This document shows positions 987 through 49,857 of a DNA stretch of 49,897 bases, piece by piece. This DNA comes from Escherichia phage JLBYU19. The notes beneath the pieces were generated by a model. That model was not told the DNA's origin, ran no database searches, and saw nothing but the letters and a program-made list of their open reading frames with translations. Both the position numbers and the translations under genes were made by a program. Numbering within the stretch: position 1 is the stretch's first letter; the number at the start of each line of letters is the position of its first letter. Location of the stretch: sequence record OK272489.1. One strand, given 5' to 3'.

Positions 987-1463
987 TTAGCTATTCGTGC
1001 TGTTATCACCTTTGTAGAATCTTCCGCCTGGTTCGTAGTCTGAATTTTTGACTACGCGCAACATTTCGTATTTGTCGCAACGGGTAGTAAGAGGCTTGCC
1101 GTTAGAATCAAACCGCAGATCTGGACGACAAAACGAGGCGCGGTATCCTTTGCATCCATTATATTTGTAGTCGTTATGCACCTTTTGTGCTCCAGCGGCT
1201 GAAATCATACCACGCTTTCGCCATTGGTTAACGACTTGCTGAGATACGCGCAGACGTCGAGCCATAGCAGGAACACCGCCGTAATACTCGATCAGAATGT
1301 CAAGGCGAGATTTCAGGCTTGCTTTTACCTCATCTCGCAGGATAAGAAATCCGGTTCGGTGTTTTCGTGGCTTTTTGTCTTTACCTCGTCGCGTTCCGTT
1401 GTTACCGTTAATAGTGCGCTTGTCGATCTCACCCGTAGATACTGCAATTCGTGCATCTTTCAT
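987..1463 (-). CDS. putative HTH DNA-binding protein
   Basis: 158 aa, basic; RRLRVSQQVVNQWRKRG helix-turn-helix-like segment; GAGGTGA RBS; divergent from helicase gene. Confidence 0.5.
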   Translation of the reverse strand: MKDARIAVSTGEIDKRTINGNNGTRRGKDKKPRKHRTGFLILRDEVKASLKSRLDILIEYYGGVPAMARRLRVSQQVVNQWRKRGMISAAGAQKVHNDYKYNGCKGYRASFCRPDLRFDSNGKPLTTRCDKYEMLRVVKNSDYEPGGRFYKGDNSTNS

Positions 1464-1474
1464 CTAGTCACCTC

Positions 1475-1494
1475 ATAGCATTTTTTGTTAAAAC
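1475..1494 (+). promoter_or_regulatory. conserved junction element (variant ATAGCATTTTTTGTTAAAAC)
   Basis: TTGTTA at 1485-1490, TATTAT 22 nt downstream (1513-1518); precedes helicase gene. Confidence 0.55.
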
Positions 1495-1550
1495 AGTTTA
1501 TTGTAATGAGTCTATTATATACTCCAAATGGCATTTTTTAAAGGTTTAAG

Positions 1551-3548: not shown

Positions 3549-3967
3549 TGGCTATAACTGATAAAGGCGATTATCTTGAGTTTTACGAAAGGGATCCAAC
3601 CGACACGAGAAGGGAAGTTAATCACCAGATAGATAGTTTTCAGTGGTTGACTTATGCTCATCCTTATTTGCTGGCGTGGCATACGGTAAACGAGAATGAG
3701 AAGTCTAAAGCAACGGCGATGATTGATCAGCAGTCCGGCTTGGTTAAGGGAGTAAGCGATTTCATCATCCTGATTGGTTTAAACGGAAAATACCCCTTTG
3801 CAGCGATTGAGATCAAACGAGTGAATAAATCAGGCAAGGGGAAAGCATCACCAGTCAGCGATGAACAAAAGGCTTTTTTGCGTCGCGTTCGCAGCTTAGG
3901 AGGATTCGCTGCGGTAGCCTACGGATTCAATCAGTTTAAGTTGGCTATTGAATACATGCTTAAATAG
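3548..3967 (+). CDS. VRR-NUC-like nuclease (PD-(D/E)xK)
   Basis: 139 aa; VSDFIIL...IEIKR core; start overlaps helicase stop (TAATG). Confidence 0.6.
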   Translation: MAITDKGDYLEFYERDPTDTRREVNHQIDSFQWLTYAHPYLLAWHTVNENEKSKATAMIDQQSGLVKGVSDFIILIGLNGKYPFAAIEIKRVNKSGKGKASPVSDEQKAFLRRVRSLGGFAAVAYGFNQFKLAIEYMLK

Positions 3968-3982
3968 CACTTTTTGTTAAAA
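3963..3982 (+). promoter_or_regulatory. conserved junction element AATAGCACTTTTTGTTAAAA
   Basis: exact consensus; contains stop of upstream gene; CATAAT at 4002-4007, 22 nt after TTGTTA. Confidence 0.6.
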
Positions 3983-4777: not shown

Positions 4778-5035
4778 ATGGAAAAAGAGAGAAGCGTTTA
4801 TTTAAATGAAACTGGCGAGTGGTTGTTATTTCGCGCTATGGTGTGCGATGCACTTGATAAAAACCCTAACGTGAAAAAGATGATTGATTGCGATCCGTGG
4901 GAATTTTCAAGCGCATTAGATATGAGCTTTGAGGAGACAAGAAAACTCCCGCTTGAAAAATGGCACGAACAAATCAGAAATGACATGCAAGAGTTTGTCG
5001 ATTCGTGGAATTTTCAGCACGGAATGATCCACTAA
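4778..5035 (+). CDS. hypothetical protein
   Basis: 85 aa ORF; GGAG RBS; stop codon embedded in conserved junction element. Confidence 0.5.
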   Translation: MEKERSVYLNETGEWLLFRAMVCDALDKNPNVKKMIDCDPWEFSSALDMSFEETRKLPLEKWHEQIRNDMQEFVDSWNFQHGMIH

Positions 5036-5053
5036 TAGCACTTTTTGTTAAAA
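5034..5053 (+). promoter_or_regulatory. conserved junction element AATAGCACTTTTTGTTAAAA
   Basis: exact consensus; CATAAT at 5073-5078; GC dyad 5055-5073. Confidence 0.6.
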
Positions 5054-5110
5054 CGCCCGGCCTAGTGTCGGGCATAATTATTTCAACGAAGCAAACATGA
5101 GGAAATAAAA

Positions 5111-8216: not shown

Positions 8217-8278
8217 AATTTTTCCTTTTTGGTTGTTTCGTTTCGATGAAACAAATATACCCGACACTAGGCCGGGCG

Positions 8279-8298
8279 TTTTAACAAAAAATGCTATT
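8279..8298 (-). promoter_or_regulatory. conserved junction element (AATAGCATTTTTTGTTAAAA on minus strand)
   Basis: one mismatch to consensus; followed on minus strand by same GC dyad as copy at 5034 and TATATT. Confidence 0.6.
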
Positions 8299-10440: not shown

Positions 10441-10460
10441 TTTTGTCAAAAAGTGCTATT
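10441..10460 (-). promoter_or_regulatory. conserved junction element (AATAGCACTTTTTGACAAAA on minus strand)
   Basis: TTGACA variant; TAAAAT 22 nt downstream inside GGGCCG/CGGCCC dyad; precedes 8807..10387. Confidence 0.6.
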
Positions 10461-10677
10461 TGATCCGCTCTATTGCAACCAGAAGTCGATCAGGCTGGAG
10501 GTCGCTGTAGCATTCTCCTGTAATCCCATCCTTAAACGTAAAGTAAAGCGCCTTATGATATGAAAAACCAATCAGCCAACCTACCGCCGTTTTTTTGATG
10601 GGCCTGACTATATCGCCAGGCTTGAAAGTCTTTGTGGTAGAATGCGTTACTTTGTAACGGTTCTCACTGTTTATCAC
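10456..10677 (-). CDS. hypothetical protein
   Basis: 73 aa; coupled to upstream ORF; stop inside junction element. Confidence 0.45.
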   Translation of the reverse strand: MINSENRYKVTHSTTKTFKPGDIVRPIKKTAVGWLIGFSYHKALYFTFKDGITGECYSDLQPDRLLVAIERIK

Positions 10678-11060
10678 AGATATTTGCCCTCAAACAGATA
10701 ACATCCGCCAGCAGAGAATCCGACCTCTTCACGGTACAGGTTCCAGCGGTCGCCGCACTCATCAAAAACATAACCCGCAACGCTTCCAAGCGGTCGCCCT
10801 TTCTCGATCTGGTATCGCTTGCCCTGCTTAAAGTGCTTTTTGCACGGCATGTTATGATCTACAAACGTGCAAAGAACGGTTTTTGTGTTAATGGTGCGGT
10901 AATCATCTCGGTTTGCTGGAAGCCAACGGCTACCCTTAACAAGCGTCTTAACCTGGAACTCTTCCATCTCGATCACATCATTACTTCCTGCAATATTCTG
11001 ATAAACCGTTTTAAAACGGCCTTTCATCAATACGTTGGTTTCATTACAGATAACATTCAT
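10674..11060 (-). CDS. hypothetical protein
   Basis: 128 aa; AAGGAG RBS; first ORF after junction element 11115. Confidence 0.5.
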   Translation of the reverse strand: MNVICNETNVLMKGRFKTVYQNIAGSNDVIEMEEFQVKTLVKGSRWLPANRDDYRTINTKTVLCTFVDHNMPCKKHFKQGKRYQIEKGRPLGSVAGYVFDECGDRWNLYREEVGFSAGGCYLFEGKYL

Positions 11061-11114: not shown

Positions 11115-11134
11115 TTTTAACAAAAAGTGCTATT
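11115..11134 (-). promoter_or_regulatory. conserved junction element (minus strand)
   Basis: exact consensus on minus strand; stop of upstream gene embedded; CATAAT 22 nt downstream. Confidence 0.6.
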
Positions 11135-13270: not shown

Positions 13271-13551
13271 TATGCGATCCCAGTTACGTTAAAACTTACA
13301 GCCCTTGTTGCGCTAAATACATAAGCATCAACAGCGCCGCCAAATACACGAATTTTACCCTGGCCGTACTGCGCATTCATATTTCGCCAAACCGTTCTAT
13401 TAGAGCAGAATGCGCTACCAGTCTTAATAAGCGTATCCATCTCTTTTCTTAGATCGCGATAGTCAAGCCAGAATCTAAAGGCACGCTGTTTAATTCGCGC
13501 CGCCTTGATTTTTTCTCTTGCGCTATTGAAATCATTCTTTTCGTATGCCAT
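13270..13551 (-). CDS. hypothetical protein
   Basis: 93 aa, basic; single-nucleotide stop/start overlaps with neighbours. Confidence 0.45.
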   Translation of the reverse strand: MAYEKNDFNSAREKIKAARIKQRAFRFWLDYRDLRKEMDTLIKTGSAFCSNRTVWRNMNAQYGQGKIRVFGGAVDAYVFSATRAVSFNVTGIA

Positions 13552-13748
13552 TAAATGATCTCCATGTATGTTTCAAAGCCATTTAACTTGAACAGGCCGT
13601 TTTCACATTTGCGCACGTTCCAAGTTAGCCCTGAGTGGTACGCCTCCATATCATCAAGGTCAATGGTGATTTCAGCACCTTTCTTAAACAAGCCTTTTTC
13701 GTGAGACTTGTCGCGCTTAACAACTTTAACATCAACCTGATTTTCCAT
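13551..13748 (-). CDS. hypothetical protein
   Basis: 65 aa from ATG 13748 (GAGGA RBS), directly downstream of junction element 13805. Confidence 0.5.
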   Translation of the reverse strand: MENQVDVKVVKRDKSHEKGLFKKGAEITIDLDDMEAYHSGLTWNVRKCENGLFKLNGFETYMEII

Positions 13749-13804
13749 CTTTAAATCCTCGCTTGTTGTCGATGGGTGTAATATACCATTCAGGCGCACA
13801 TCGT

Positions 13805-13824
13805 TTTTAACAAAAAGTGCTATT
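13805..13824 (-). promoter_or_regulatory. conserved junction element (minus strand)
   Basis: exact consensus; TATATT 22 nt downstream; conserved leader shared with copies at 14311 and 15615. Confidence 0.6.
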
Positions 13825-14110
13825 CAACAACTTTTCCAGTTAAAGAGATAAGTTGCCTTGTAATCTTGTGGCGGCGATACTTACGCGCAACAACAGGAAG
13901 GCTTTCACCGCTTTGATGGCCAAAGCAGATCGGCAATTCACCTTCAAGGGAGCGGAAGCCACCAAATTCAAGATCCCGCACTGGCTTCGTGCGCCAGGCT
14001 TCAATAAATCCGCGCTCGTCACGAGTGATATAGCGGTATATGTTCGGGAGGGGCAATTGTATCCCCTCAAAATCCACGGTATCGGTATAGCTATAAAACT
14101 TAGAACTCAT
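13820..14110 (-). CDS. hypothetical protein
   Basis: 96 aa from ATG 14110; stop inside junction element; track N-terminal extension to 14161 rejected. Confidence 0.45.
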   Translation of the reverse strand: MSSKFYSYTDTVDFEGIQLPLPNIYRYITRDERGFIEAWRTKPVRDLEFGGFRSLEGELPICFGHQSGESLPVVARKYRRHKITRQLISLTGKVVE

Positions 14111-14252
14111 AGTCAACAACTCCAAACTCATTGACGATTTGGGCCTTGTAGAAGCCGCCATTTTTCGCCAGGTTGTAACAAGCGGCTACGGTTTCAAATT
14201 CGCGCGCTTCCGGCTGGCTGTTTTCGTGTTCCCAGGTAATCAGAGTAACCAT
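14100..14252 (-). CDS. hypothetical small protein (not in ORF track)
   Basis: 50 codons; GAGGA RBS; first ORF after junction element 14311; overlaps next start by 11 nt. Confidence 0.4.
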   Translation of the reverse strand: MVTLITWEHENSQPEAREFETVAACYNLAKNGGFYKAQIVNEFGVVDYEF

Positions 14253-14310
14253 TTTCAAATCCTCGCATTCGTTGTCGATGCGTGTAATGTACAGGAATGC
14301 GAGGATTGAG

Positions 14311-14330
14311 TTTTAACAAAAAGTGCTATT
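14311..14330 (-). promoter_or_regulatory. conserved junction element (minus strand)
   Basis: exact consensus; TACATT 22 nt downstream. Confidence 0.6.
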
Positions 14331-14593
14331 TAGTCCAGGAATTCGATTTCACGCTCTCCAGTTAACGGATCTACAAGCCAGAATCCGAGCGGTTCGTCGC
14401 GAACACCTTCATAGAATCCAAGCGCCGCCAGATCTTCACCTTTAACGAATACCAGGTTTCCGCTACGGCTTACGTGAGAAACGTTAACGATAACCGGAAA
14501 TGTGCGATCCTTAAATGCAGGCCGCAGGGCGTAACATCCGTTGTTGAGCAAACGTGCTTTGCGCTTAACTGGAATAGGTGCATTAATTTTCAT
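14330..14593 (-). CDS. hypothetical protein
   Basis: 87 aa; AAGGAG RBS; stop adjacent to junction element. Confidence 0.5.
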   Translation of the reverse strand: MKINAPIPVKRKARLLNNGCYALRPAFKDRTFPVIVNVSHVSRSGNLVFVKGEDLAALGFYEGVRDEPLGFWLVDPLTGEREIEFLD

Positions 14594-14605
14594 GGTTATT
14601 ACTCC

Positions 14606-14818
14606 TTATCGTAAAGATTTAAAGACGTATAGTTTATTGCGGTAACTATATATCCGCATTGTTATTTCTCGCAGTGCAATATATTCCTTCCTGTTTTCCG
14701 GCAGACTGGCGAGCAATAACAGGCAGTATTTATAAGCGCGGTCAAGATTCCTTTCCGTGCCCCTGCAATATCCCTTGTTGCGCCTGGAGCGGTACAGCCA
14801 TAACAATTTCTTGAACAT
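14606..14818 (-). CDS. hypothetical protein (uncertain)
   Basis: 70 aa Arg-rich ORF from ATG 14818, 2 nt after upstream stop; no clear RBS. Confidence 0.25.
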   Translation of the reverse strand: MFKKLLWLYRSRRNKGYCRGTERNLDRAYKYCLLLLASLPENRKEYIALREITMRIYSYRNKLYVFKSLR

Positions 14819-14819
14819 T

Positions 14820-15029
14820 TCAGATACGCCCATACAGATCACAGACTTCGTTGATAAAATTGCTTTGCGCCCCTTTGTTGTCACGCTCAAGAATTGCGCG
14901 GCATTCAAACTTATGATTATGCACGATGACTACAACCATGTTTTCAGGCATTGAGCGGTTATAGCGTTGCGCATCAGTGATTAAAACATCCATACCCATC
15001 TCATGTGCTTTCTTGATCACATCCAACAT
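14820..15029 (-). CDS. hypothetical protein (paralog of 15017..15283)
   Basis: 69 aa from ATG 15029 (AGGAG RBS); C-terminal NFINEVCDLYG resembles DFINDVCLLQ of neighbour. Confidence 0.45.
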   Translation of the reverse strand: MLDVIKKAHEMGMDVLITDAQRYNRSMPENMVVVIVHNHKFECRAILERDNKGAQSNFINEVCDLYGRI

Positions 15030-15283
15030 TTTTTCTTCTCCTGCAATAAGCAAACATCATTGATAAAATCAGCACGGCCCTTAATGTTGCTGATGTGGAA
15101 CGTCTTTTCAGCGTACAGGCCATCACCTTCAATCACGATCATTACGCGAGTCGGTTTATTCACGGTCGCACACGAAAAGAGTGGTCGCACCGGAAGAAAT
15201 TTAGTAGCCACACCCAGGTTAGCCCTGGCGGCCCTGCAAAATGCCTCCGCCAGATCCAAATCATTTTCGGTAATCACCGCCAT
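15017..15283 (-). CDS. hypothetical protein (paralog of 14820..15029)
   Basis: 88 aa; GAGGAG RBS. Confidence 0.45.
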   Translation of the reverse strand: MAVITENDLDLAEAFCRAARANLGVATKFLPVRPLFSCATVNKPTRVMIVIEGDGLYAEKTFHISNIKGRADFINDVCLLQEKKKCWM

Positions 15284-15555
15284 TACTTCTTGATCTCCTC
15301 ACTGATAAATTTCAGCACCTGACGCAAGAAAACCTCGTTGTTGATAGTCGCTGGCAATTCTTCTTTCACTTCTTGCGGCAGATAGATATTGCCGTGCCAG
15401 GTCAAGCAATCGTAGTTGATACGATAAGAGCAAAGCCACTCGCAATCGTTATCTGCTTCCCAAATGCAGAGTTGCAGAACATCGCCAAAATCTTCAACAG
15501 TCAGATCCAGACCGTGACGCTTAGCGAAATTGAAAGTGGTTTTGCTGATGTTCAT
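15283..15555 (-). CDS. hypothetical protein
   Basis: 90 aa; AGGAG RBS; first gene after junction element 15615. Confidence 0.5.
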   Translation of the reverse strand: MNISKTTFNFAKRHGLDLTVEDFGDVLQLCIWEADNDCEWLCSYRINYDCLTWHGNIYLPQEVKEELPATINNEVFLRQVLKFISEEIKK

Positions 15556-15614
15556 TGCTATCTCCTGAGCGGTTCGTTTCGATGTGTGTAATGTACCCGA
15601 TCAGACGGCCTGAG

Positions 15615-15634
15615 TTTTAACAAAAAGTGCTATT
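15615..15634 (-). promoter_or_regulatory. conserved junction element (minus strand)
   Basis: exact consensus; TACATT 22 nt downstream; faces away from AT-rich control region. Confidence 0.6.
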
Positions 15635-15663
15635 TGACGGTTAGCGCCAGGATTGTGATCGAA

Positions 15664-15753
15664 ATAATCAGAAGTAATCATTCGTAATCAAATCACGTCA
15701 AAATGATGATTGCCTTTGCAAATTTGATGAGAAAAGTAATCACGTTTAATCAT
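15664..15753. repeat. iteron-like short direct repeats (A/G)TAATCA
   Basis: ATAATCA 15665, GTAATCA 15674, GTAATCA 15684, GTAATCA 15736, TTAATCA 15747; first three spaced 9-10 bp. Confidence 0.5.
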
Positions 15754-15936
15754 TGGTTGCAGGGGAGATAGTGAAACCTTCCCCTCTTGCCTCACTTTTC
15801 CGCCTGGCTGTCAGTGGTTGTTGTCTTTTGTTCACCCCTGTTACCGATTTCAGGCGGCGTGTTTCCGCGCGGTTTTCCGGTGTAGCGAAAACGGAAAAAA
15901 CAAAAAAAATCCTATATAATACATTGAAAATAAAGA

Positions 15937-16075
15937 TTATTTATTTATATATATCTATAATGTTTTCTTTTTGTTCTCACTGTTACAGTGCTTTTTGTTG
16001 GGTGTGGTGTGGTTGTGTGTTGGTATATATGGATAGTTGCGCGCGCGGCGGATTGCATATGTATATATACTTTTT
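15937..16075. repeat. AT/GT-rich block homologous to 43926-44060
   Basis: TTATTTATTTAT(A/G)TAT... then TTGTTTT(C/T)TT.., GT-rich GGTGTGGTGTGG, ATGTATATATAC; same order in both copies. Confidence 0.55.
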
Positions 16076-16188
16076 CCGGCGGATTGCGTTAACAGCGTGA
16101 ACAGAAAAATAACAGCCCTGAAATCAACAACTTGCGCATGATTTTGTAGTTTTTCGATATTGGTAACGTTTTGAATACAACAAAAACA

Positions 16189-16216
16189 TTGACACGCACC
16201 AAATAGCTTTTATAAT
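16189..16216 (+). promoter_or_regulatory. sigma70-type promoter (consensus hexamers)
   Basis: TTGACA 16189-16194, 16-nt spacer, TATAAT 16211-16216; 32 nt upstream of ATG 16248. Confidence 0.6.
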
Positions 16217-16247: not shown

Positions 16248-16712
16248 ATGGAACAGAAGACCACTAAGGACTATTGCGATTGGCTTCGCGAGCTTGGTCG
16301 CCGCATGGCTAGTGGCGATATTGAAGAGTATAAAATGTCACTAATTGACCTGGCCGGAATGTTAAGCGGTGACGACTGCTACAAGATCACGCGCAGTTCA
16401 TCCTACAGCCGGACCATTATCAACCGCGTTCCAGAAGTAAGGGCCGCAGGTCGGGTAAGTATCAAGGTCGAGGAAACGGAAGATGATAAATTTTACGTTT
16501 TCCGCATGGTGCGCGAATCAAAAAGGAAAATCATCACACCCGAAGAATTGCCAGCAATCAAGGCAAGGGCGATCAAAAAGTTTGCCGATCGCTTACTGGC
16601 AGCAATCCCGAACATCGTTGACCTGGAAGGGGATAAACTGGCTGGAGCTTGTGAGGGCGTAAGCCGCTACCAGGATATGATCCGCGAAATCATCAAAGAG
16701 GAGGAGCAATAA
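16248..16712 (+). CDS. hypothetical early protein
   Basis: 154 aa from ATG 16248 (GGAGGAAAGG RBS), directly downstream of consensus sigma70-type promoter. Confidence 0.5.
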   Translation: MEQKTTKDYCDWLRELGRRMASGDIEEYKMSLIDLAGMLSGDDCYKITRSSSYSRTIINRVPEVRAAGRVSIKVEETEDDKFYVFRMVRESKRKIITPEELPAIKARAIKKFADRLLAAIPNIVDLEGDKLAGACEGVSRYQDMIREIIKEEEQ

Positions 16713-16837
16713 TGAAAAAGGCATTAATCGGCGTTTTGGCGGCAATGACACTCCTGAACGGCGGCGAAGGCACTAAGGTTATGGCACACGCTATGGTAAT
16801 GGCTGAATTTGAGGAAGTGAAAGATGAAAACAAATAA
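16712..16837 (+). CDS. hypothetical small protein (not in ORF track)
   Basis: 41 codons with hydrophobic N-terminus; GAGGAGG RBS. Confidence 0.3.
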   Translation: MKKALIGVLAAMTLLNGGEGTKVMAHAMVMAEFEEVKDENK

Positions 16838-18532: not shown

Positions 18533-19123
18533 ATGAAACGAGACATTATTATCCTTAATGGGCCGCCTGGCTGTGGAAAGGACACTATTGCAGCTTACCT
18601 AACGGGCCATCGTTACCCAGCGGTTAAGGCGTCATTCAAGCAGCCGATGTTCGATATTGCGTTTTCCATGCTGGGCGTGTACAGATACGATGAATTTATG
18701 GACCTGTACAACGACCGAGAACAAAAAGAAAAGCCTCAAGTTATTTTGGGCGGCAAGTCACCTCGACAATTCATGATCTGGATTAGCGAGGATGTAATGA
18801 AGCCAGTTTTTGGGGATCACTATTTCGGGCGTCGAATGGTTGAAGAGATTCACGAGATGTACCGAGATTTGGCGGTTGTGATCAGTGATGGCGGATTCCC
18901 CGAAGAAATCAAGCCGCTCGTTAAGGCGGGGCATGAGGTGCATATTTGCCGATTGCATCGCGACGGCTTCACGTTTGCTGGCGATTCGAGAGACTACATT
19001 GACCTGAGCGGTTATCACTATCGAATCCATCACTATGACTTCCACTTGCAGGACGGCAAGCCGGAACTGGCTGTAAACGAGATCGTCAATACTGTCAAAT
19101 GGAAGCACACACAGATTAAATAG
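18533..19123 (+). CDS. P-loop nucleotide kinase (dNMP kinase-like)
   Basis: 196 aa; N-terminal Walker A ILNGPPGCGKDT. Confidence 0.6.
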   Translation: MKRDIIILNGPPGCGKDTIAAYLTGHRYPAVKASFKQPMFDIAFSMLGVYRYDEFMDLYNDREQKEKPQVILGGKSPRQFMIWISEDVMKPVFGDHYFGRRMVEEIHEMYRDLAVVISDGGFPEEIKPLVKAGHEVHICRLHRDGFTFAGDSRDYIDLSGYHYRIHHYDFHLQDGKPELAVNEIVNTVKWKHTQIK

Positions 19124-19137
19124 CACGAATTGCTAAA
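19119..19137 (+). promoter_or_regulatory. conserved junction element (variant AATAGCACGAATTGCTAAA)
   Basis: TTGCTA variant; TATAAT at 19158-19163; GC dyad 19139-19157. Confidence 0.55.
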
Positions 19138-19193
19138 CGCGGGGTTATCGGCCCCGCTATAATGCGCACATCAACAATCAAGAGGAAATCACA

Positions 19194-20123: not shown

Positions 20124-20414
20124 ATGGCAAACAAAACTTACCGCAAACTACTGGTTAACGCTTTTGAAAACATCGCGCAGTGTAACAAGTGGAACGACTC
20201 TAAACACTCGCCAGTCACAATGAAGCGCGCAGGATTCAAAAATGCTCGTTCATGGGCGCGAGCTTTCGCAGCTTGCTATATGCCGGATGGCGGACTAGGG
20301 GTGATGAACGATTTTTTGATCAACATGATAGAGGAAGCGGCGCGAGAGGATCGACCGCTGACACAGCGAGATTTTGACGACTTCGCGCGCGATGAGCTTT
20401 ACTATCTGAGCTAA
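20124..20414 (+). CDS. hypothetical protein
   Basis: 96 aa; AAGGGGA RBS; stop inside junction element. Confidence 0.45.
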   Translation: MANKTYRKLLVNAFENIAQCNKWNDSKHSPVTMKRAGFKNARSWARAFAACYMPDGGLGVMNDFLINMIEEAAREDRPLTQRDFDDFARDELYYLS

Positions 20415-20432
20415 TAGCACTTTTTGTTAAAA
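20413..20432 (+). promoter_or_regulatory. conserved junction element AATAGCACTTTTTGTTAAAA
   Basis: exact consensus; TAAAGT at 20452-20457 within AAGGGCA/TGCCCTT dyad. Confidence 0.6.
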
Positions 20433-23067: not shown

Positions 23068-24635
23068 TGATCATATGGGAAGATTTGACGGCGGCGCAAA
23101 AGCGAGCCATTAAAGAAATCAGTGAGCATTCATTCGAAAAGATGATCAGAATCTGGTTTCAGTTATTGCAGGGGCAAAAATTCCAGAGCAACTGGCATTT
23201 TAGCTTATTGTGCAGTGAGGTAGAGAAGATCATCAATGGAGAGTCGCAGAATGTGATTTTCAACATTACGCCAGGTAGCGGTAAGACTGAGATTTTCTCG
23301 ATCCACATGTCACCCTACGCGTCATTGAAAAGTCGGAAGGTGAGAAACCTTAACCTTTCGTTTAGTGATGGACTTGTCCAGCAAAACAGCAACAGGATAA
23401 AGGAGATTATCGGTTCTCCTGAGTGGCAAGAGCTATGGCCAGGAAAACTGGCAAAGGCGAGCGCAAAAGATCTCATAGTTACGGATGGCGGCAAGGTTAA
23501 ATTGCAAGTTAACTCACGTTCTATTGGCGGACAGGTAACAGGTTTGCGTGGCGGCTATATGGACGATGGTTTTACTGGTATGCTGGTTCTGGACGATCCA
23601 GACAAGCCGGATGATATGCTTTCTAAGGTCAAGCGTGAGGCGATCCACATGCGGTTAAAAAACACAGTGCGATCGCGTCGAATGAAAGACACTACGCCGA
23701 TTGTTATGGTGCAACAGCGACTACACGTTAATGATTCCACCTGGTTCATGCTTAATGGCGGAATGGGTGGTATTGAGTTTAAAGTCGTGAGCATTCCGGC
23801 GCTGGTTACGAAAGAATACCGCGAATCGCTTCCTGATTGGTTGAAGCCTGAATTTGATCGTGATGTGCTGTCAAGTAAGCCAGTGATGATAGATGGCGTT
23901 GCTCATTATTCATTTTGGCCTGCGAAGGAAAGCGCGGAGGAGTTGCTTGCATTGCGCAATGCAGATCCTTACACGTTCTCCAGCCAATACCAACAGCAAC
24001 CAATCGCGCTGGGCGGGAACGTGTTTAAAACAGAGTGGTTCCAGTATTACGGCAGCGGCGAAAAATGCGCACTTCCTAAACCGGATCGCTTTGAATACAC
24101 ATTTATTACTGGAGATACCGCGCAGAAGGCCGGAGAGCTTAACGACTATTCTGTTTTTTGTTATTGGGGGATGTATAAGAATCGCGTTTACTTCATTGAT
24201 GGCATTCGCGGAAAGTGGGAAGCGCCGGATCTTGAATTAAATTTTATTGCCTTCGTTAATCAGTGCTGGAAGCGCAATAAGGAGTGTGGCAGCTTGCGAC
24301 GTATCCACATTGAGGATAAGGCCAGCGGCACTGGTTTGATTCAGGGGGCCAAAAAGAAGATCCCGATTGATATAAATCCCGTTCAGCGAAGCAACGACAA
24401 GGTAACGAGAGCAATGGACGCCGCGCCAGTAATGAGGGCCGGACGTGTGGCACTGCCAGAAAATCACCCAATGCTGCCTGAGATACTGGCAGAGGTTGCA
24501 GCATTCACTTTTGATGATTCTCATCCCCATGATGATATTGTCGATAATATAGTTGATGCTGTTAACGTCGAAATGAACTTGGCAGATGATCCGGTGGCAA
24601 GGATGAAAAAGCTGGCTGGTCTACGCAATAAATAG
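23067..24635 (+). CDS. terminase large subunit
   Basis: 522 aa; Walker A-like NITPGSGKT; position and size. Confidence 0.8.
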   Translation: MIIWEDLTAAQKRAIKEISEHSFEKMIRIWFQLLQGQKFQSNWHFSLLCSEVEKIINGESQNVIFNITPGSGKTEIFSIHMSPYASLKSRKVRNLNLSFSDGLVQQNSNRIKEIIGSPEWQELWPGKLAKASAKDLIVTDGGKVKLQVNSRSIGGQVTGLRGGYMDDGFTGMLVLDDPDKPDDMLSKVKREAIHMRLKNTVRSRRMKDTTPIVMVQQRLHVNDSTWFMLNGGMGGIEFKVVSIPALVTKEYRESLPDWLKPEFDRDVLSSKPVMIDGVAHYSFWPAKESAEELLALRNADPYTFSSQYQQQPIALGGNVFKTEWFQYYGSGEKCALPKPDRFEYTFITGDTAQKAGELNDYSVFCYWGMYKNRVYFIDGIRGKWEAPDLELNFIAFVNQCWKRNKECGSLRRIHIEDKASGTGLIQGAKKKIPIDINPVQRSNDKVTRAMDAAPVMRAGRVALPENHPMLPEILAEVAAFTFDDSHPHDDIVDNIVDAVNVEMNLADDPVARMKKLAGLRNK

Positions 24636-24650
24636 CACTAATTGCTAAAA
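24631..24650 (+). promoter_or_regulatory. conserved junction element (variant AATAGCACTAATTGCTAAAA)
   Basis: atypical: TATAAT only 5 nt downstream (24656-24661), then a terminator hairpin before portal gene. Confidence 0.4.
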
Positions 24651-24664
24651 AGTTATATAATCAA

Positions 24665-24690
24665 GGCTGGATTTTTCCAGCCTTTTTTAT
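24665..24690 (+). terminator. intrinsic terminator between terminase and portal genes
   Basis: GGCTGGA-ttttt-CCAGCC hairpin + T6. Confidence 0.6.
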
Positions 24691-24705
24691 TATGGAGATT
24701 TGACG

Positions 24706-25998
24706 ATGAGTGAAAAAACAAGGCTAGTTAAGGCCGATGGATACAACGAGATTTTCAAGGGCAGCAAGGGCAATGGGCGTGTGGAGTTGCCTTTCTTTAT
24801 GCAAGGGTTCGAATACACCACGCACGCTGATTTTTACATTCGCGACGGCCTAGCAAAACGAATCATCGACGTTGTTCCAGAAGAAATGGTGACGCCTGGA
24901 TTTAATATTGACGGCGTGGAAGACGAGGAAAGTTTTAGATCTTTGTGGGATGAGAAGAGACTAAACGATAAAATCATTGATGCGCTTTGCTGGTCGCGTC
25001 TTTTTGGTGGCGCTGCAATCGTAGCAATCGTCCAGGATGGCAGGTCGTTAAAGTCACCTGTAGCGCCTGGTGCAATCCTTGAAGATGTTCGCGTTTACGA
25101 TCGCTTTCAGGTTAGGGTAGAAAAGCGCGAAACTAATCCACGCAAGGTAAGATATGGTGAGCCATTAATTTACACCATTTCACCTGGTGCCGACTTGCCA
25201 GAATACCAGGTTCACTATTCGCGAGTCTGTATTATCGACGGTGAGCGGCTACCAAATCAGCGGCGTCAATCAAATGATGGGTGGGGTGAGTCGATCCTGA
25301 ATAAGAGACTTGTTGAGGCTATTTGTGATTATAACTACTGCGAAAACTTAGCAACTCAATTGTTGCGACGTAAGCAACAGGCGGTATGGAAAGTTAAAGG
25401 TCTTGCTGATCTTTGTGATGATGATGATGGTGTTAGTGCCGCACGTTTGCGACTTGCTCAAGTTGATGATGAGGGTGGCGTAGGCCGTGCGATCGGCATT
25501 GATGCGGAAGATGAGGAATATGATGTTTTAAATTCTGATATTTCTGCCGTCGATTCGTTCTTGGAAAAGAAGATGGATCGCATTGTATCTCTTTCCGGCA
25601 TCCATGAAATCATCCTCAAAAACAAGAACGTTGGCGGTGTTAGCGCGAGCCAAAACACGGCGCTTGAAACCTTCTCCAAGCTGATCGACAGAAAGCGAAA
25701 GGAAGAATACAAACCAATCCTTGAATTTCTGATCCCGTTCCTGATTCAAGAGGAAGAATGGAGTATTCAGTTTGCGCCGTTAAGCGTTCCCAGCGAAAAG
25801 GACCAGGCCGAGATCTTGAACAAGAACATTGATTCTTTGAGCAAGGCTATTGACGGTCAATTCATGGATACAGAGGAGGCGCGCGACACATTGCGAGCCA
25901 TTGCGCCTAACGTTAAACTAAAAGACGGCAATAACATTAAATTACCTGAGCAGGACGTAGAGCCGGAGCCAGGAACAACCGAGGGTAGCAATCAATGA
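24706..25998 (+). CDS. portal protein
   Basis: 430 aa from ATG 24706 (GGAG RBS); follows terminase. Confidence 0.6.
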   Translation: MSEKTRLVKADGYNEIFKGSKGNGRVELPFFMQGFEYTTHADFYIRDGLAKRIIDVVPEEMVTPGFNIDGVEDEESFRSLWDEKRLNDKIIDALCWSRLFGGAAIVAIVQDGRSLKSPVAPGAILEDVRVYDRFQVRVEKRETNPRKVRYGEPLIYTISPGADLPEYQVHYSRVCIIDGERLPNQRRQSNDGWGESILNKRLVEAICDYNYCENLATQLLRRKQQAVWKVKGLADLCDDDDGVSAARLRLAQVDDEGGVGRAIGIDAEDEEYDVLNSDISAVDSFLEKKMDRIVSLSGIHEIILKNKNVGGVSASQNTALETFSKLIDRKRKEEYKPILEFLIPFLIQEEEWSIQFAPLSVPSEKDQAEILNKNIDSLSKAIDGQFMDTEEARDTLRAIAPNVKLKDGNNIKLPEQDVEPEPGTTEGSNQ

Positions 25999-29257: not shown

Positions 29258-29276
29258 GTTTAACAAAAAGTGCTAT
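29258..29276 (-). promoter_or_regulatory. conserved junction element, oriented away from adjacent capsid gene
   Basis: plus strand reads GTTTAACAAAAAGTGCTAT; flanked by inverted repeat TGATAGCA (29234) / TGCTATCA (29271). Confidence 0.45.
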
Positions 29277-29282
29277 CATCTA

Positions 29283-33010: not shown

Positions 33011-33029
33011 TTTTAACAAAAAGTGCTAT
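33011..33029 (-). promoter_or_regulatory. conserved junction element, oriented away from adjacent tail chaperone gene
   Basis: plus strand reads TTTTAACAAAAAGTGCTAT immediately followed by AAGGAG RBS of 33044 gene. Confidence 0.45.
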
Positions 33030-33043
33030 AAGGAGATCTTAAG

Positions 33044-43184: not shown

Positions 43185-43463
43185 TCACCCCCAAAAAGTA
43201 TATATATATCTTGAATCAGATCCAGAAAGCCCACTCCATGTAACGGTGTCGCCACTTACCCCTAAGTTTGGTGCGCCAGGGTCGCCACCACGCCAGGAAT
43301 TCATGCCAACATATATTGCTTTCAATGATTTACCTGGCGGCCTGTTTTGGTAAGTCTTGCTACCTGATGGCTGAGTGAATTTATCAAGGAAGAAAACAGG
43401 CGTTAAAAGCCCTGTAACTTCCCTTCCTCGATCGTCATATATTGCATAACCATATTGCGCCAT
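43185..43463 (-). CDS. hypothetical protein (leftward accessory operon)
   Basis: 92 aa ORF. Confidence 0.4.
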   Translation of the reverse strand: MAQYGYAIYDDRGREVTGLLTPVFFLDKFTQPSGSKTYQNRPPGKSLKAIYVGMNSWRGGDPGAPNLGVSGDTVTWSGLSGSDSRYIYTFWG

Positions 43464-43732
43464 TAATTACACCTCAAATCAATAAATTTACTTTCATTTT
43501 GCCAACGGTTGATAAATTTAACTTCTTTATTGTCAACGCTCAACCTGTATTGCTTTTGGCTGAATCTGTTTTCTCGGACTGCATTAATTTTGACTTCATG
43601 TAATCCGTTAACAGGGAATGTTTTAACGTTAAATTTTGCCGTGCAATCGATCTCCTTGAAGTTGCCAGTAGGCGACGCTGCGCATCCTGTCAGAGCGGCT
43701 ACAGTGGCGATAACTGCGATTAACTTTTTCAT
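43463..43732 (-). CDS. putative outer-membrane lipoprotein (Cor/Llp-like superinfection-exclusion candidate)
   Basis: 89 aa from ATG 43732 (AAGGAG RBS); signal peptide plus lipobox LTGC; first gene after junction element 43789. Confidence 0.5.
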   Translation of the reverse strand: MKKLIAVIATVAALTGCAASPTGNFKEIDCTAKFNVKTFPVNGLHEVKINAVRENRFSQKQYRLSVDNKEVKFINRWQNESKFIDLRCN

Positions 43733-43788
43733 CTTCAATACTCCTTAGTTGTTGTTGGATGCAACTATACACGATCTTGGGCATCGCG

Positions 43789-43807
43789 TTTAGCAAAAAG
43801 TGCTATT
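43789..43807 (-). promoter_or_regulatory. conserved junction element (AATAGCACTTTTTGCTAAA on minus strand)
   Basis: TATAGT 21-22 nt downstream on minus strand; precedes Cor-like lipoprotein operon. Confidence 0.55.
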
Positions 43808-49807: not shown

Positions 49808-49826
49808 AAATAGCACTTTTTGCTAA
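49808..49826 (+). promoter_or_regulatory. conserved junction element, oriented away from adjacent tail fiber gene
   Basis: AAATAGCACTTTTTGCTAA directly abutting AGGAGG RBS of minus-strand fiber gene; second AATAGCA at 49838. Confidence 0.4.
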
Positions 49827-49857
49827 TGACAATGCAGATAATAGCATTTTCAAGTGC

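What the first reader, a model, noticed from the sequence alone, without database searches (positions are those of the whole stretch)
13764..15634. Three near-identical promoter-leader cassettes in the leftward early array
Beyond the shared 20-bp element at 13805, 14311 and 15615, the next 50 nt or so are also conserved (minus strand TAYATT-ACACNCATCGAMAACRA; plus strand 13764-13786, 14270-14291, 15575-15595). This implies whole promoter-leader modules were duplicated in front of different small genes. The same array holds tandem paralogs 14820..15029 and 15017..15283. Modular shuffling of this kind is typical of accessory or host-takeover gene islands.
Basis: seen in the sequence. Interest (0 to 1): 0.5.

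Follow-up and report, generated by a model that had tools for sequence, protein, structure and literature searches.

The report
Phage promoter cassettes carrying host marboxes
The three repeats belong to a genome-wide set of compact promoter cassettes in a T1-like coliphage, and their conserved 20-bp element matches the DNA site of the host stress activators MarA/SoxS/Rob at the position that activates transcription, which gives a testable answer to a published open question about these phages.

Summary
The window is a nearly complete T1-like phage genome (Drexlerviridae, 98.5% identical to vB_EcoS-95). The 20-mer occurs 16 times in it, not three. T1, TLS and a Klebsiella Webervirus carry 17-21 copies each. 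A 2024 paper on phage TLS describes it as an unexplained 21-nt intergenic repeat.

New here: in 73% of 249 non-redundant copies an extended -10 (TGnTATAAT) lies exactly 19 nt downstream. A C-rich discriminator, a CA start site and a leader of about 26 nt follow. No -35 is present.

The 20-mer matches the consensus marbox of MarA/SoxS/Rob/RamA. A matrix built from 81 published ChIP-seq sites has the consensus GCACTAATTGCTAAA, which is identical to one phage copy. Typical copies outscore 74-80 of the 81 host sites. Orientation, centre (about -40) and spacing to the -10 equal those of E. coli micF, the model class II marbox promoter. No AraC-type protein was found in 28 phage ORFs.

It is the commonest leader class in the family, not a recent duplication, because the spacers are unrelated. 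Gene gain, loss and replacement in relatives break at the cassettes, as with T4 PeSLs. Binding and dependence on the host activators are untested.

The parts
15614..15633 (-). Cassette A: 20-bp marbox-like activator site ATAGCACTTTTTGTTAAAAC.
   Evidence: The core GCACTTTTTGTTAAA scores 16.5 bits on a matrix built from 81 MarA/SoxS/Rob/RamA ChIP-seq sites, better than 74 of the 81. It reads forward relative to the downstream gene.
15590..15595 (-). Cassette A: -10 hexamer TACATT, 18 bp after the marbox
   Evidence: In 249 non-redundant copies this position holds a -10 hexamer in 73%, with A at -11 in 82% and T at -7 in 78%.
15583..15583 (-). Cassette A: predicted transcription start (the A of CATCGA)
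   Evidence: C is conserved at 65% and A at 72%, 6-7 nt after the -10. This is inferred and has not been mapped.
15556..15582 (-). Cassette A: leader TCGAAACGAACCGCTCAGGAGATAGCA with SD, before the ATG at 15553-15555 of a 90-aa ORF (15283-15555; PHROG 6147, unknown function)
   Evidence: Across the family the leader has a median length of 26 nt.
14310..14329 (-). Cassette B: marbox-like site
14286..14291 (-). Cassette B: -10 hexamer TACATT
14253..14279 (-). Cassette B: predicted start (14279) and leader, before the ATG at 14250-14252 of a 50-aa DUF7170 protein (14100-14252)
14259..14306 (-). Cassette B: 11-bp inverted repeat ATCCTCGCATT (14296-14306) / AATGCGAGGAT (14259-14269). It brackets the -10, start site and leader, and the right arm contains the SD.
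   Evidence: The RNA fold has dG -20.6 and z = -3.4 against shuffles. Cassettes A and C have no significant fold (z = 0.0).
13804..13823 (-). Cassette C: marbox-like site
13780..13785 (-). Cassette C: -10 hexamer TATATT, preceded by TGG (extended -10)
13749..13773 (-). Cassette C: predicted start (13773) and leader, before the ATG at 13746-13748 of a 65-aa protein (13551-13748) matching Pfam PF25180 'Phage antiviral trigger protein Gp54'
   Evidence: E = 1.7e-38
1474..1493 (+). Family copy upstream of the helicase gene (1551-3548). It abuts, in divergent orientation, the SD of the Cro-like regulator gene (987-1463).
3963..3982 (+). Family copy upstream of the Dam methyltransferase gene
5034..5053 (+). 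Family copy. Its 19-nt spacer is identical to that of the copy at 8279-8298.
8279..8298 (-). Family copy upstream of a 91-aa ORF
10441..10460 (-). Family copy (TTGACA variant) upstream of the DUF3987 helicase gene
11115..11134 (-). Family copy upstream of ORF 10674-11060
19119..19138 (+). Family copy (GAA variant, AATAGCACGAATTGCTAAAC) with a spacer hairpin and a perfect TATAAT. The mismatch search missed it.
20413..20432 (+). Family copy with a hairpin bracketing the -10
24631..24650 (+). Copy whose core GCACTAATTGCTAAA equals the ChIP-seq consensus. It is atypical: no -10 at the canonical distance, followed by a terminator, upstream of the portal gene.
43788..43807 (-). Family copy upstream of ORF 43463-43738
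29258..29277 (-). Copy in reverse orientation inside the late (plus-strand) operon, between the Ig-like protein gene and the major capsid gene
   Evidence: The same arrangement occurs in T1 at 15087.
33011..33030 (-). Copy in reverse orientation between the major tail gene and the tail chaperone gene. It has TGA-TAGATT at the canonical distance and a bidirectional terminator about 30 nt further on.
   Evidence: The same arrangement occurs in T1 at 18851.
49809..49828 (+). Degenerate copy abutting the SD of the tail-fibre gene on the opposite strand

Best explanation
Each of the three elements is a compact promoter-leader cassette. It belongs to a family of 16 in this genome, and 17-21 per genome in T1, TLS and a Klebsiella Webervirus.

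Anatomy, 5' to 3' on the transcribed strand:
1. The stop codon of the upstream gene.
2. A 20-bp site, ATAGCAC-nnn-TTG-Y-TAAAAC, which matches the consensus 'marbox', the binding site of the host monomeric AraC-family activators MarA, SoxS and Rob (RamA in Klebsiella and Salmonella). It is in forward orientation.
3. 18 bp of free spacer. In about half of the cassettes this carries one arm of a stem-loop.
4. An extended -10 (TGn-TAnAAT).
5. A C-rich 6-nt discriminator.
6. A CA start site.
7. A leader of about 26 nt, rich in A and C, with an SD. The commonest form begins AUCGAAACGAA.

No -35 hexamer is present. The activator site is centred at about -40.

Proposed mechanism: this is a class II activator-dependent sigma-70 promoter. 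Host RNA polymerase is recruited by a marbox-bound activator that takes the place of the -35 contact. The most likely activator in unstressed cells is the constitutive, abundant Rob. MarA, SoxS or RamA would add to it under antibiotic, oxidative or bile stress.

Because the same cassette precedes many unrelated genes, it also serves as the homologous joint at which gene modules are gained, lost and swapped.

What is shown and what is inferred:
- Shown: the sequence anatomy, its family-wide conservation, the quantitative match to the marbox, the geometry identical to micF, and the cassette-bounded indels.
- Inferred: the start site, binding by MarA/SoxS/Rob, and dependence of transcription on them.

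Sub-confidences: promoter cassette 0.9; the 20-mer is a marbox by sequence and geometry 0.85; real functional use of host MarA/SoxS/Rob 0.55.
For: Family and conservation:
- The 20-mer has 15 copies at up to 3 mismatches against 0.01 expected. It is oriented with the downstream gene in 12 of 16 copies.
- T1 carries the same motif and the same architecture.
- The TLS paper independently reports 18 intergenic repeats aaATAGCACnnnTTGnTAAAA, lying in the direction of transcription about 76 nt before start codons, with function unknown. Here the distances are 76, 78 and 79 nt.

Promoter anatomy in 249 non-redundant copies (none of this was imposed by the search):
- G at -14 in 78%; T A T A A T at 61, 82, 67, 62, 51 and 78%.
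- The -10 starts exactly 19 nt after the 20-mer in 73% of copies.
- C and A at the start site in 65% and 72%.
- The canonical -35 position reads AAAACn. A sigma-70 consensus scan finds no promoter at the cassettes.

Marbox match:
- A matrix from 81 ChIP-seq sites for MarA/SoxS/Rob/RamA (PMC10268841, Table 1) has the consensus GCACTAATTGCTAAA, identical to window 24635-24649.
- The phage cores score 16.5-17.8 of a possible 18.5, above 74-80 of the 81 host sites.
- The window has 13 hits at or above 16.5 against 0 in shuffles, and 17 at or above 14.2 against 0.75.
- The low-information columns of the host matrix (5-7 and 11) are the phage's variable positions.

Geometry:
- The literature rules for class II are a forward marbox overlapping the -35, clustered near -41, with no recognisable -35 but a canonical -10 and start site.
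- E. coli micF reads GCACTGAATGTCAAA, then 20 nt, then TAGAAT, then 7 nt, then +1. The phage cassettes read core, 20 nt, -10, 6 nt, A.

Specificity and the source of the factor:
- T1, TLS and Klebsiella phage Penguinator have 20, 21 and 18 high-scoring marboxes. Of these, 14, 15 and 14 have a -10 at +20. An unrelated Klebsiella phage has 1.
- No AraC-family domain was found in 28 unknown or early ORFs of at least 90 aa. The factor is therefore probably supplied by the host.
- The phage records that carry the family's conserved regulator gene are almost all from Enterobacterales hosts, the group that has MarA/SoxS/Rob.

Modularity:
- Indels in three relatives break at the cassettes.
Against: - No binding, start-site or expression data exist for any of these promoters. 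The start site is predicted.
- A Keio-collection screen of the T1-like phage LL5 recovered only LPS, TolC, PpiB and SecB mutants. It did not recover rob, marA or soxS, so no single paralogue is essential. Redundancy among the three, or basal activity of the extended -10, could explain this. So could the hypothesis being wrong.
- MarA and SoxS are scarce in unstressed cells, and Rob is largely held inactive (my knowledge). Yet T1-like phages grow very fast in ordinary broth.
- The site also contains a partial dyad, TAGCA-N5-TG(C/T)TA. A conserved phage Cro-like regulator exists whose gene abuts one copy, so a phage protein could be the real ligand.
- Four of the 16 copies do not fit the simple promoter picture: two lie in reverse orientation inside the late operon, one is degenerate, and one lacks the -10.
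- The 81 ChIP sites were transcribed from the parts of the table shown, which was truncated in places. The set of 249 copies was collected with a motif pattern, so conservation inside the 20-mer is partly by construction. The downstream signals are not.
Confidence: 0.6

Rival explanations
1. The 20-mer is the operator of a phage-encoded dimeric helix-turn-helix protein, the conserved Cro/YdaS-like 'transcriptional regulator' (window 987-1463, minus strand). This protein would bind the dyad TAGCA-N5-TG(C/T)TA centred at -42. It would act as a class II activator of delayed-early promoters, as lambda cI does at PRM. Where the site lies downstream of a promoter it would act as a roadblock or 'stoperator'.
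For: - The site holds a 5-bp dyad with 10-bp half-site spacing and a variable centre, at positions 3-7 and 13-17. It is perfect when position 15 is C, which holds in 131 of 249 copies.
- The regulator has a Cro-like HTH. Pfam YdaS gives 28.7 bits against a cutoff of 30, and PHROG 2856 'transcriptional regulator' gives 1.6e-72.
- The regulator is found in 849 phage records, almost all of them genomes of 44-54 kb from enterobacterial hosts, like the Drexlerviridae examined here.
- Its own putative sigma-70 promoter (TTTAAA-17-TATAAT, starting at 1542 on the minus strand) places the 1474 copy in its 5' UTR. That layout suggests autoregulation, and T1 has the same arrangement.
- The TLS authors proposed stoperator or enhancer roles.
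Against: - The strongest conservation is asymmetric: A2, T3, C8 and A18-A20 have no symmetric partners.
- The site has a strict orientation relative to the -10. A symmetric dimer site would not need one.
- Position 15 is T in 41% of copies, which breaks the dyad. The marbox consensus predicts exactly Y at that position.
- The full 15-20 bp match to an independently derived host motif, together with micF-identical spacing, would have to be coincidence.
- A non-Drexler phage with a distant Cro-like homologue lacks the motif. This is uninformative rather than contrary.
Confidence: 0.2
2. The cassettes are strong, activator-independent sigma-70 promoters. An extended -10 would act together with the T-tract and A-tract of the 20-mer, which would serve as an UP-like element for the alpha C-terminal domains. 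The resemblance to a marbox would have no functional meaning.
For: - G at -14 in 78% of copies and T at -15 in 43% give an extended -10, which can work without a -35.
- TTTTT-GTT-AAAA resembles the 3' half of the UP consensus (my knowledge; the TLS authors also suggested it).
- T1-like phages grow well without stress inducers, and no rob, marA or soxS hit appeared in the LL5 screen.
Against: - The A/T tracts sit about 8 bp closer to the -10 than a canonical UP element does. This comes from my own alignment of the remembered UP consensus, with phage positions.
- UP function does not explain the near-invariant ATAGCAC and G14.
- It also does not explain why the variable positions coincide with the uninformative columns of the marbox.
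Confidence: 0.13
3. The repeats are mainly recombination or mobility cassettes (PeSL-like selfish or modular joints, or relics of recent duplication). Their sequence would be kept by gene conversion, not by a specific regulatory protein.
For: - Indel and replacement breakpoints in swan01, SLUR29 and SECphi27 fall in the cassettes.
- The copies at 5034 and 8279 share an identical 19-nt spacer, which shows recent conversion.
- Inverted repeats are enriched: 54% of copies have one against 12% of shuffles. PeSLs show the same feature.
Against: - This does not exclude promoter function. PeSLs themselves are promoters.
- Gene conversion alone would homogenise the spacers too, yet they are unrelated in most pairs.
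- The motif is conserved across subfamilies and host genera with position-specific constraints.
Confidence: 0.05
4. The conserved sequence acts at the RNA level (a structured leader, riboswitch or processing site), or it is a sigma-54 promoter (TGGCAC-N5-TTGC-like).
For: - TAGCAC...TTGC superficially resembles the -24/-12 elements.
- Cassette B folds into a strong hairpin.
Against: - Rfam finds nothing in the window.
- Cassettes A and C have no significant fold (z = 0.0).
- The 20-mer lies upstream of the predicted start site.
- The GG-to-GC spacing is 2 bp too short for sigma-54 and the invariant GG reads AG. This is read from the sequence against the remembered sigma-54 consensus.
- A sigma-54 start site would leave the conserved -10 and CA unexplained.
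Confidence: 0.02

Closest known systems
Class II MarA/SoxS/Rob/RamA-dependent promoters of Enterobacteria (archetype: micF)
   Same: - A 20-bp asymmetric marbox in forward orientation overlapping the -35 position, centred at about -40/-41.
- No recognisable -35, with a canonical -10 and start site.
- The same 20 nt between the GCAC...AAA core and the -10 as in E. coli micF.
- Both have AAAAC at the -35 position.
   Different: - The cassettes are carried by a virulent phage, with 16-21 near-consensus copies in 50 kb, whereas host sites are degenerate and scattered.
- They are coupled to a conserved leader and often to a stem-loop.
- Binding and activation are untested.
The 21-nt intergenic direct repeats of phage TLS (also noted in T1, Rtp and Rogue1), PMC11447400
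   Same: It is the same element: consensus aaATAGCACnnnTTGnTAAAA, lying in the direction of transcription about 76 nt before start codons.
   Different: That paper left the function open (stoperator, enhancer site or UP element) and listed it as an unanswered question. It did not report the fixed -10, the start site, the leader classes, the marbox identity or the role in indels.
PeSL (promoter-early stem-loop) cassettes of T4-like phages (PMC2839356, PMC4122927)
   Same: - Small intergenic cassettes made of upstream stop codon, promoter, stem-loop, SD and start codon.
- The stem-loop lies between the upstream promoter element and the -10, or overlaps the -10.
- They are concentrated before small genes of unknown function.
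- Indels and replacements between close relatives break at the cassettes (compared with 26, 34, 37).
   Different: - PeSLs have consensus sigma-70 -35 and -10 boxes and no activator site.
- There is no sequence similarity to them.
- Only about half of the T1-type cassettes have a stem-loop, and of the three studied only cassette B does.
- Mini-circles were not examined.
Phage middle and late promoters that replace the -35 with an activator site (T4 MotA box; lambda PRM with cI at -42; Mu Mor and C)
   Same: A sigma-70 -10 combined with a conserved upstream site in place of the -35, with many copies per genome (my knowledge).
   Different: In those systems the activator is encoded by the phage. 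Here the site matches a host activator, and no phage AraC-type protein was detected.

Membership tests
Class II marbox (MarA/SoxS/Rob/RamA) promoter | Sequence matches the marbox (GCAC, then 7 nt, then AAA core; full consensus AYnGCACnnWnnRYYAAAYn as I remember it) | tested here: met
   On a matrix from 81 ChIP-seq sites the phage cores score 16.5-18.5 of a possible 18.5, above 74-81 of the 81 host sites. The window has 13 hits at or above 16.5 against 0 in shuffles. The variable phage positions coincide with the low-information columns. CACT-7X-AAA reads as in micF.
Class II marbox (MarA/SoxS/Rob/RamA) promoter | Marbox in forward orientation relative to transcription | tested here: met
   GCAC is distal and AAA proximal to the -10 and the downstream gene in A, B, C and 9 other copies. 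micF has the same orientation.
Class II marbox (MarA/SoxS/Rob/RamA) promoter | Site overlaps the -35 position and is centred near -41, at a fixed distance from the -10 | tested here: met
   The distance from core to -10 is 20 nt in 73% of 249 copies and 20 nt in E. coli micF. The centre is at about -40 from the predicted start. The start site itself is inferred.
Class II marbox (MarA/SoxS/Rob/RamA) promoter | No recognisable -35 hexamer, with a canonical -10 and start site | tested here: met
   The -35 position reads AAAACn. TGnTATAAT and CA are conserved. The rule is stated in PMC10268841.
Class II marbox (MarA/SoxS/Rob/RamA) promoter | Bound by MarA, SoxS or Rob, with transcription activated by them | not testable with these tools
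   This needs EMSA or footprinting, reporters in a triple mutant, or ChIP during infection. The LL5 Keio screen found no single-gene requirement.
T1/TLS 21-nt intergenic direct repeat | Consensus aaATAGCACnnnTTGnTAAAA, intergenic, in the direction of transcription, about 76 nt before the start codon | tested here: met
   All three copies match exactly. The distances to the ATG are 79, 78 and 76 nt.
PeSL-type promoter/stem-loop shuffling cassette | Promoter combined with a stable stem-loop in the same small intergenic cassette | tested here: inconclusive
   Family-wide, 54% of copies have an inverted repeat of at least 6 bp, against 12% of shuffles. Of the three cassettes in the finding only B folds significantly (z = -3.4; A and C 0.0).
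PeSL-type promoter/stem-loop shuffling cassette | Indels and replacements between close relatives are bounded by the cassettes | tested here: met
   swan01, SLUR29 and SECphi27 compared with the window. One counter-example at a microhomology.
PeSL-type promoter/stem-loop shuffling cassette | Consensus sigma-70 -35 and -10 boxes at 16-18 bp spacing | tested here: not met
   TTGnTA lies 22 nt from the -10. The consensus scan finds nothing at the cassettes.
Sigma-54 promoter | GG at -24 and GC at -12 with fixed spacing (TGGCAC-N5-TTGC) | tested here: not met
   The sequence reads TAGCAC-N3-TTGY: AG replaces GG and the spacing is 2 bp too short (sequence; consensus from memory).
Known structured RNA family (Rfam) | Match to a covariance model at the gathering threshold | tested here: not met
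   0 matches in the whole window.

The most novel reading that the evidence does not exclude
A whole family of virulent enterobacterial phages (Drexlerviridae: T1, TLS, Warwickvirus, Klebsiella Webervirus) has wired most of its early and replication-gene promoters to the host Mar/Sox/Rob/RamA activators. These 16-21 near-consensus class II marboxes per 50-kb genome are better than almost any host site.

Two consequences would follow.
1. Phage gene expression would be coupled to the host's antibiotic, oxidative or bile-salt stress state, for example through Rob activated by bile in the gut.
2. Replicating phage DNA would present hundreds to thousands of high-affinity sites that could titrate these regulators away from the host multidrug-resistance regulon.
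Probability: 0.45. Interest if true: 0.85.

Novelty: new variant of a known kind. Interest (0 to 1): 0.72.

Why it matters
T1-like phages are classic, widespread and troublesome laboratory contaminants, yet how they are transcribed is essentially unknown. [quoted passage not shown]

This analysis turns the repeat into a concrete, cheaply testable model: class II promoters that depend on MarA, SoxS or Rob, with predicted start sites.

If the model is correct:
- It would be an example of a virulent phage handing its early gene programme to a host stress-response activator family.
- It would link phage success to the Mar/Sox/Rob/RamA state of the cell, which also controls efflux, porins, and TolC, the receptor of TLS and LL5. 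That bears on phage-antibiotic combinations against multidrug-resistant Enterobacteria.
- It would supply a set of compact, naturally insulated, inducible promoters.
- It would extend the PeSL idea, promoter cassettes as joints for gene shuffling, from T4-like myoviruses to an unrelated siphovirus family.

Tried and rejected
- Canonical sigma-70 reading. TTGTTA, TTGACA or TTGCTA looks like a -35 but lies 22 nt from the -10. No -10 sits 16-18 nt after it.
- An extended -10 inside the 20-mer (TGTTAAAAC). It lacks the T at -7 and leaves ATAGCAC unexplained.
- A canonical UP element. The register is off by about 8 bp.
- Sigma-54. The spacing is wrong, and GG reads AG.
- Sites for CRP, FNR, IHF, Fis, ArcA or NtrC. 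I checked these by eye against remembered consensus sequences and found no fit.
- A structured RNA. Rfam finds nothing, and cassettes A and C do not fold.
- A dyad operator for the phage Cro-like protein. I keep this as a rival, but the conservation is asymmetric.
- A co-occurrence test with a distant Cro-like homologue in a non-Drexler Klebsiella phage. The motif is absent, but the homologue is too distant for this to be informative.
- Pseudomonas phage Motto as a negative control outside the host range of MarA/SoxS/Rob. I dropped it because it is 82-88% identical to Salmonella and Vibrio T1-like phages, so its host assignment does not make it independent.
- Literature searches for the motif string, for Drexlerviridae transcriptomics, and for marbox together with phage. 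They found only the TLS paper and no marbox link.
- The paralogy of 15017-15283 and 14820-15029 stays unresolved.

Full report
**What the window is.** The region 13500-15900 is 98.5% identical to Escherichia phage vB_EcoS-95 (Drexlerviridae, Tempevirinae, Warwickvirus). 233 phage records match it, mostly from Escherichia and Klebsiella. The window is collinear with almost the whole vB_EcoS-95 genome, permuted by about 400 bp and with a few indels. It is therefore a nearly complete T1-like siphophage genome. The finding lies in a leftward array of small genes of unknown function.

**Checking the observation.** On the minus strand the three sites read as follows:
- A (15634 down): AATAGCACTTTTTGTTAAAA ctcaggccgtctgatcggg TACATT acacac ATCGAAACGAACC...AGGAG...ATG
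- B (14330 down): AATAGCACTTTTTGTTAAAA ctcaatcctcgcattcctg TACATT acacgc ATCGACAACGAAT...GAGGA...ATG
- C (13824 down): AATAGCACTTTTTGTTAAAA acgatgtgcgcctgaatgg TATATT acaccc ATCGACAACAAGC...GAGGA...ATG

The 20-mer is identical in all three. The second box (TAYATTACACNCATCGAMAAC) occurs only at these three places in the window at up to 3 mismatches, with none expected. The 19 nt in between are not conserved: 3-9 of 19 are identical. The 20-mer is also not confined to this array. It occurs 15 times at up to 3 mismatches against 0.01 expected, and a 16th copy lies at 19119. The copies are on both strands and almost always point towards the next gene.

**The element is already described but unexplained.** The 2024 re-annotation of phage TLS reports 18 intergenic 21-nt direct repeats with the consensus aaATAGCACnnnTTGnTAAAA. 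They lie in the direction of transcription, about 76 nt before start codons, and the authors also saw them in T1, Rtp and Rogue1. They found only three sigma-70-like promoters in TLS. They speculated about stoperators, enhancer sites or UP elements, and they list the function of the repeat as an open question. In the window the three copies start 79, 78 and 76 nt before their ATGs. T1 itself has about 18-20 copies.

**Anatomy of the family.** I collected 249 non-redundant copies from the window, vB_EcoS-95, T1, TLS and IMG/VR contigs. Conservation inside the 20-mer is partly imposed by the search pattern. Everything downstream is not. Numbering the 20-mer as positions 1-20:
- G at position 38 in 78% of copies.
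- T A T A A T at positions 40-45, at 61, 82, 67, 62, 51 and 78%.
- C at position 51 in 65% and A at position 52 in 72%.

This is an extended -10 (TGnTATAAT) with its two key bases, A at -11 and T at -7, the best conserved. A C-rich 6-nt discriminator and a pyrimidine-purine start site follow. A -10 with A at its second position, T at its sixth and at least 4 of 6 matches starts exactly at position 40 in 73% of copies and at position 39 in 6%. With the start at position 52, the 20-mer spans -51 to -32. The canonical -35 position reads AAAACn, and the -35-like TTGnTA is 22 nt from the -10, too far for sigma-70. Simple consensus scans accordingly find no promoter at the cassettes. The leader from the predicted start to the start codon has a median of 26 nt.

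CATCGA sits at exactly this position in 48 of the 249 copies, and CATCGAAACGAA is the commonest 12-mer there. The same box follows the same 20-mer in T1 (2268+, 6530+) and in a Klebsiella Webervirus. The box is an old, family-wide leader class and not a product of recent local duplication.

**What the 20-mer is.** Positions 2-21, ATAGCAC-TTT-TTG-Y-TAAAAC, fit the marbox, the asymmetric 20-bp site of the monomeric AraC-family activators MarA, SoxS and Rob (RamA in Klebsiella and Salmonella). I first recalled this from memory: consensus AYnGCACnnWnnRYYAAAYn, from Martin et al. 1999, whose citation is confirmed. I then tested it against independent data.

Table 1 of a Salmonella ChIP-seq study lists 15-nt sites for the four proteins (PMC10268841). 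A weight matrix from the 81 sites shown gives these results:
- Its consensus is GCACTAATTGCTAAA, which is identical to the phage copy at window 24635-24649.
- The usual phage cores score 16.5 (GCACTTTTTGTTAAA), 17.8 (GCACTTTTTGCTAAA) and 17.3 (GCACGAATTGCTAAA) bits of a possible 18.5. That is better than 74, 80 and 78 of the 81 host sites.
- The window has 13 hits at or above 16.5 against none in 20 shuffles, and 17 at or above 14.2 against 0.75.

The matrix's uninformative columns (5-7 and 11) are exactly the positions that vary in the phage. These are the 'nnn' and 'n' of the TLS consensus. Phage position 15 is C in 131 copies and T in 102.

**Geometry.** The literature defines class II marbox promoters by three features:
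- a forward marbox overlapping the -35;
- clustering near -41;
- no recognisable -35, but a canonical -10 and start site.

The micF site reads CACT-7X-AAA and is centred at about -41. I read the E. coli K-12 micF promoter directly, because its 5' end is annotated. It runs ACAGCACTGAATGTCAAAAC, then 18 nt, then TAGAAT, then 7 nt, then +1. The phage cassettes run ATAGCACTTTTTGTTAAAAC, then 18 nt, then TACATT, then 6 nt, then A. Orientation, spacing to the -10, the AAAAC at the -35 position and the centre at about -40 are all the same. On every criterion that sequence can test, the cassettes are class II marbox promoters.

**Breadth and specificity.** With the same matrix (threshold 14.2 bits):

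| Genome | Marbox hits | Hits with a -10 at +20 |
|---|---|---|
| window | 17 | 12 |
| T1 | 20 | 14 |
| TLS | 21 | 15 |
| Klebsiella phage Penguinator | 18 | 14 |
| unrelated Klebsiella phage | 1 | 0 |

Shuffles give 0.6-0.9 hits per genome. The phage records that carry the family's conserved regulator gene are almost all from Enterobacterales hosts, the group that has these activators. None of 28 unknown or early window ORFs of at least 90 aa has an AraC-type domain, so the ligand is probably supplied by the host. In the searchable library no paper mentions both marboxes and T1-like phages.

**Most likely mechanism (inferred).** Host sigma-70 holoenzyme uses the extended -10. A marbox-bound activator replaces the -35 contact and recruits or retains the polymerase, as in the class II RamA, SoxS and Rob complexes. 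The activator would be the constitutive Rob in unstressed cells, with MarA, SoxS or RamA added under stress. The promoters drive the small early genes and also both helicases, Dam and other replication-region genes. The structural operon has few copies.

**Evidence against, and the main rival.**
- A Keio screen of the T1-like phage LL5 did not recover rob, marA or soxS. No single paralogue is essential. Redundancy or basal extended -10 activity could explain this.
- The site contains a partial dyad, TAGCA-N5-TGYTA. All Drexlerviridae genomes examined encode a Cro-like regulator (window 987-1463). Its SD abuts the copy at 1474, and its own sigma-70-type promoter (TTTAAA-17-TATAAT) would place that copy in its 5' UTR. 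A phage-encoded ligand therefore remains possible.
- Against the rival, the conservation is asymmetric, the orientation is strict, and position 15 behaves as 'Y' and not as a dyad partner.

**Stem-loops.** Perfect inverted repeats of at least 6 bp occur between positions 21 and 75 in 54% of copies. That compares with 12% of shuffles and 10% of a control region. The left arm lies in the free spacer, and the right arm overlaps or follows the -10. The T1 annotators called three of these terminators. Of the three cassettes in the finding, only B has one: 11 bp, z = -3.4, with the SD in the right arm. Only read-through transcripts from upstream would contain both arms. Why hairpins bracket the -10 is not explained.

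**Modularity.** Compared with the window:
- swan01 and SLUR29 lack 13825-14330, which is cassette B plus two genes. A single hybrid cassette remains, with B's upstream context and C's spacer and leader.
- SECphi27 has 646 bp of unrelated DNA between the same two cassettes.
- SLUR29 has an extra gene flanked by two copies of the 67-bp cassette A.

The breakpoints lie in the 20-mer or at the CATCGA box. The copies at 5034 and 8279 share an identical spacer, which shows recent exchange. This closely parallels the PeSL promoter/stem-loop cassettes that mediate modular shuffling in T4-like phages. The T1-type cassettes, however, have an activator site where PeSLs have a -35. Not all indels use them: a 2.1-kb deletion at about 16766 lies at an intragenic microhomology.

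**Paralogues.** The claim that 15017-15283 and 14820-15029 are tandem paralogues rests on a weak C-terminal similarity. BLASTP gives E = 0.004, and hhalign gives E = 0.0015 with probability 16%. It is unresolved.

**Verdict.** The feature is real, is a known unexplained repeat, and is a promoter-leader cassette. The new and testable claim is that its upstream element is a consensus host marbox in class II position. The sequence and geometry evidence is strong. Functional dependence on MarA, SoxS or Rob is inferred, at about 0.55.

Noticed in passing
window 13551-13748 (-): The gene driven by cassette C matches Pfam PF25180 'Phage antiviral trigger protein Gp54' over its full length (E = 1.7e-38). 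A protein family named as a trigger of a bacterial defence system therefore sits directly behind one of these promoters. The gene behind cassette B (14100-14252) is a DUF7170 protein.
   Followed up: no
window 33011-33030 (-) and 29258-29277 (-); T1 (L002) 18851 and 15087 (-): Two marbox copies lie in reverse orientation inside the plus-strand late operon, and T1 has them at the same positions. The copy at 33030 has TGA-TAGATT at the canonical distance and a bidirectional terminator about 30 nt after the predicted start. It could make a short antisense RNA of about 40-45 nt between the major tail gene and the tail chaperone gene.
   Followed up: partly
window 16189-16216 (+): A perfect consensus sigma-70 promoter (TTGACA-16-TATAAT, 12 of 12) heads the rightward small-gene array. 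The leftward array starts with marbox cassette A and has no canonical promoter upstream. The two early arms may therefore be controlled differently.
   Followed up: partly
window 15635-16215: The 580-bp intergenic region between the two divergent arrays is AT-rich and full of repeats: GTAATCA three times at 15674, 15684 and 15736, plus TGATTA-like iterations, TATATA-rich palindromes and a 25-nt inverted repeat at 15961/16090. T1 has GTAATC repeats next to its equivalent copy at position 121 (minus strand). This could be an origin, a pac-proximal region or a regulator-binding region.
   Followed up: partly
window 1474-1545: The marbox promoter of the helicase gene (-10 TATTAT at 1513-1518, plus strand) and the putative sigma-70 promoter of the Cro-like regulator gene (TTTAAA-17-TATAAT, minus strand, starting at 1542) have overlapping -10 hexamers on opposite strands. 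The marbox lies in the regulator's 5' UTR. T1 has the same layout.
   Followed up: partly
window 3768, 6119, 11553, 12250, 21715, 23831, 27228, 45250 (+); 6321, 47117 (-): The 11-mer TCCTGATTGGT (reverse complement ACCAATCAGGA) is over-represented: 10 copies at up to 1 mismatch against about 0.8 expected. T1 has 13, TLS 15 and Penguinator 12, against 3 in an unrelated phage. Many copies lie inside coding regions. In other places the reverse complement forms a leader plus SD (accaatcaGGAG). Its function is unknown.
   Followed up: partly
window 16712-16837 (+): Relative to vB_EcoS-95 the window has a deletion of about 2.1 kb at the microhomology TCCTGA(A/C)C. It fuses the signal peptide of a lipoprotein gene to the C-terminus of another small gene, giving a 41-aa chimeric ORF.
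   Followed up: yes
window 5054-5072 (+) and 8260-8278 (-): Two cassettes on opposite strands, 3 kb apart, share an identical 19-nt hairpin spacer (cgcccggcctagtgtcggg) although their leaders differ. This indicates recent exchange between cassettes.
   Followed up: partly
window 24631-24720 (+): This marbox copy is identical to the host ChIP-seq consensus but has no -10 at the canonical distance. A TATATAAT lies 3 nt after it, followed by a strong terminator hairpin just before the portal gene. T1's copy before terS (8361) likewise lacks the -10. These may act as binding sites only, or have another role.
   Followed up: no
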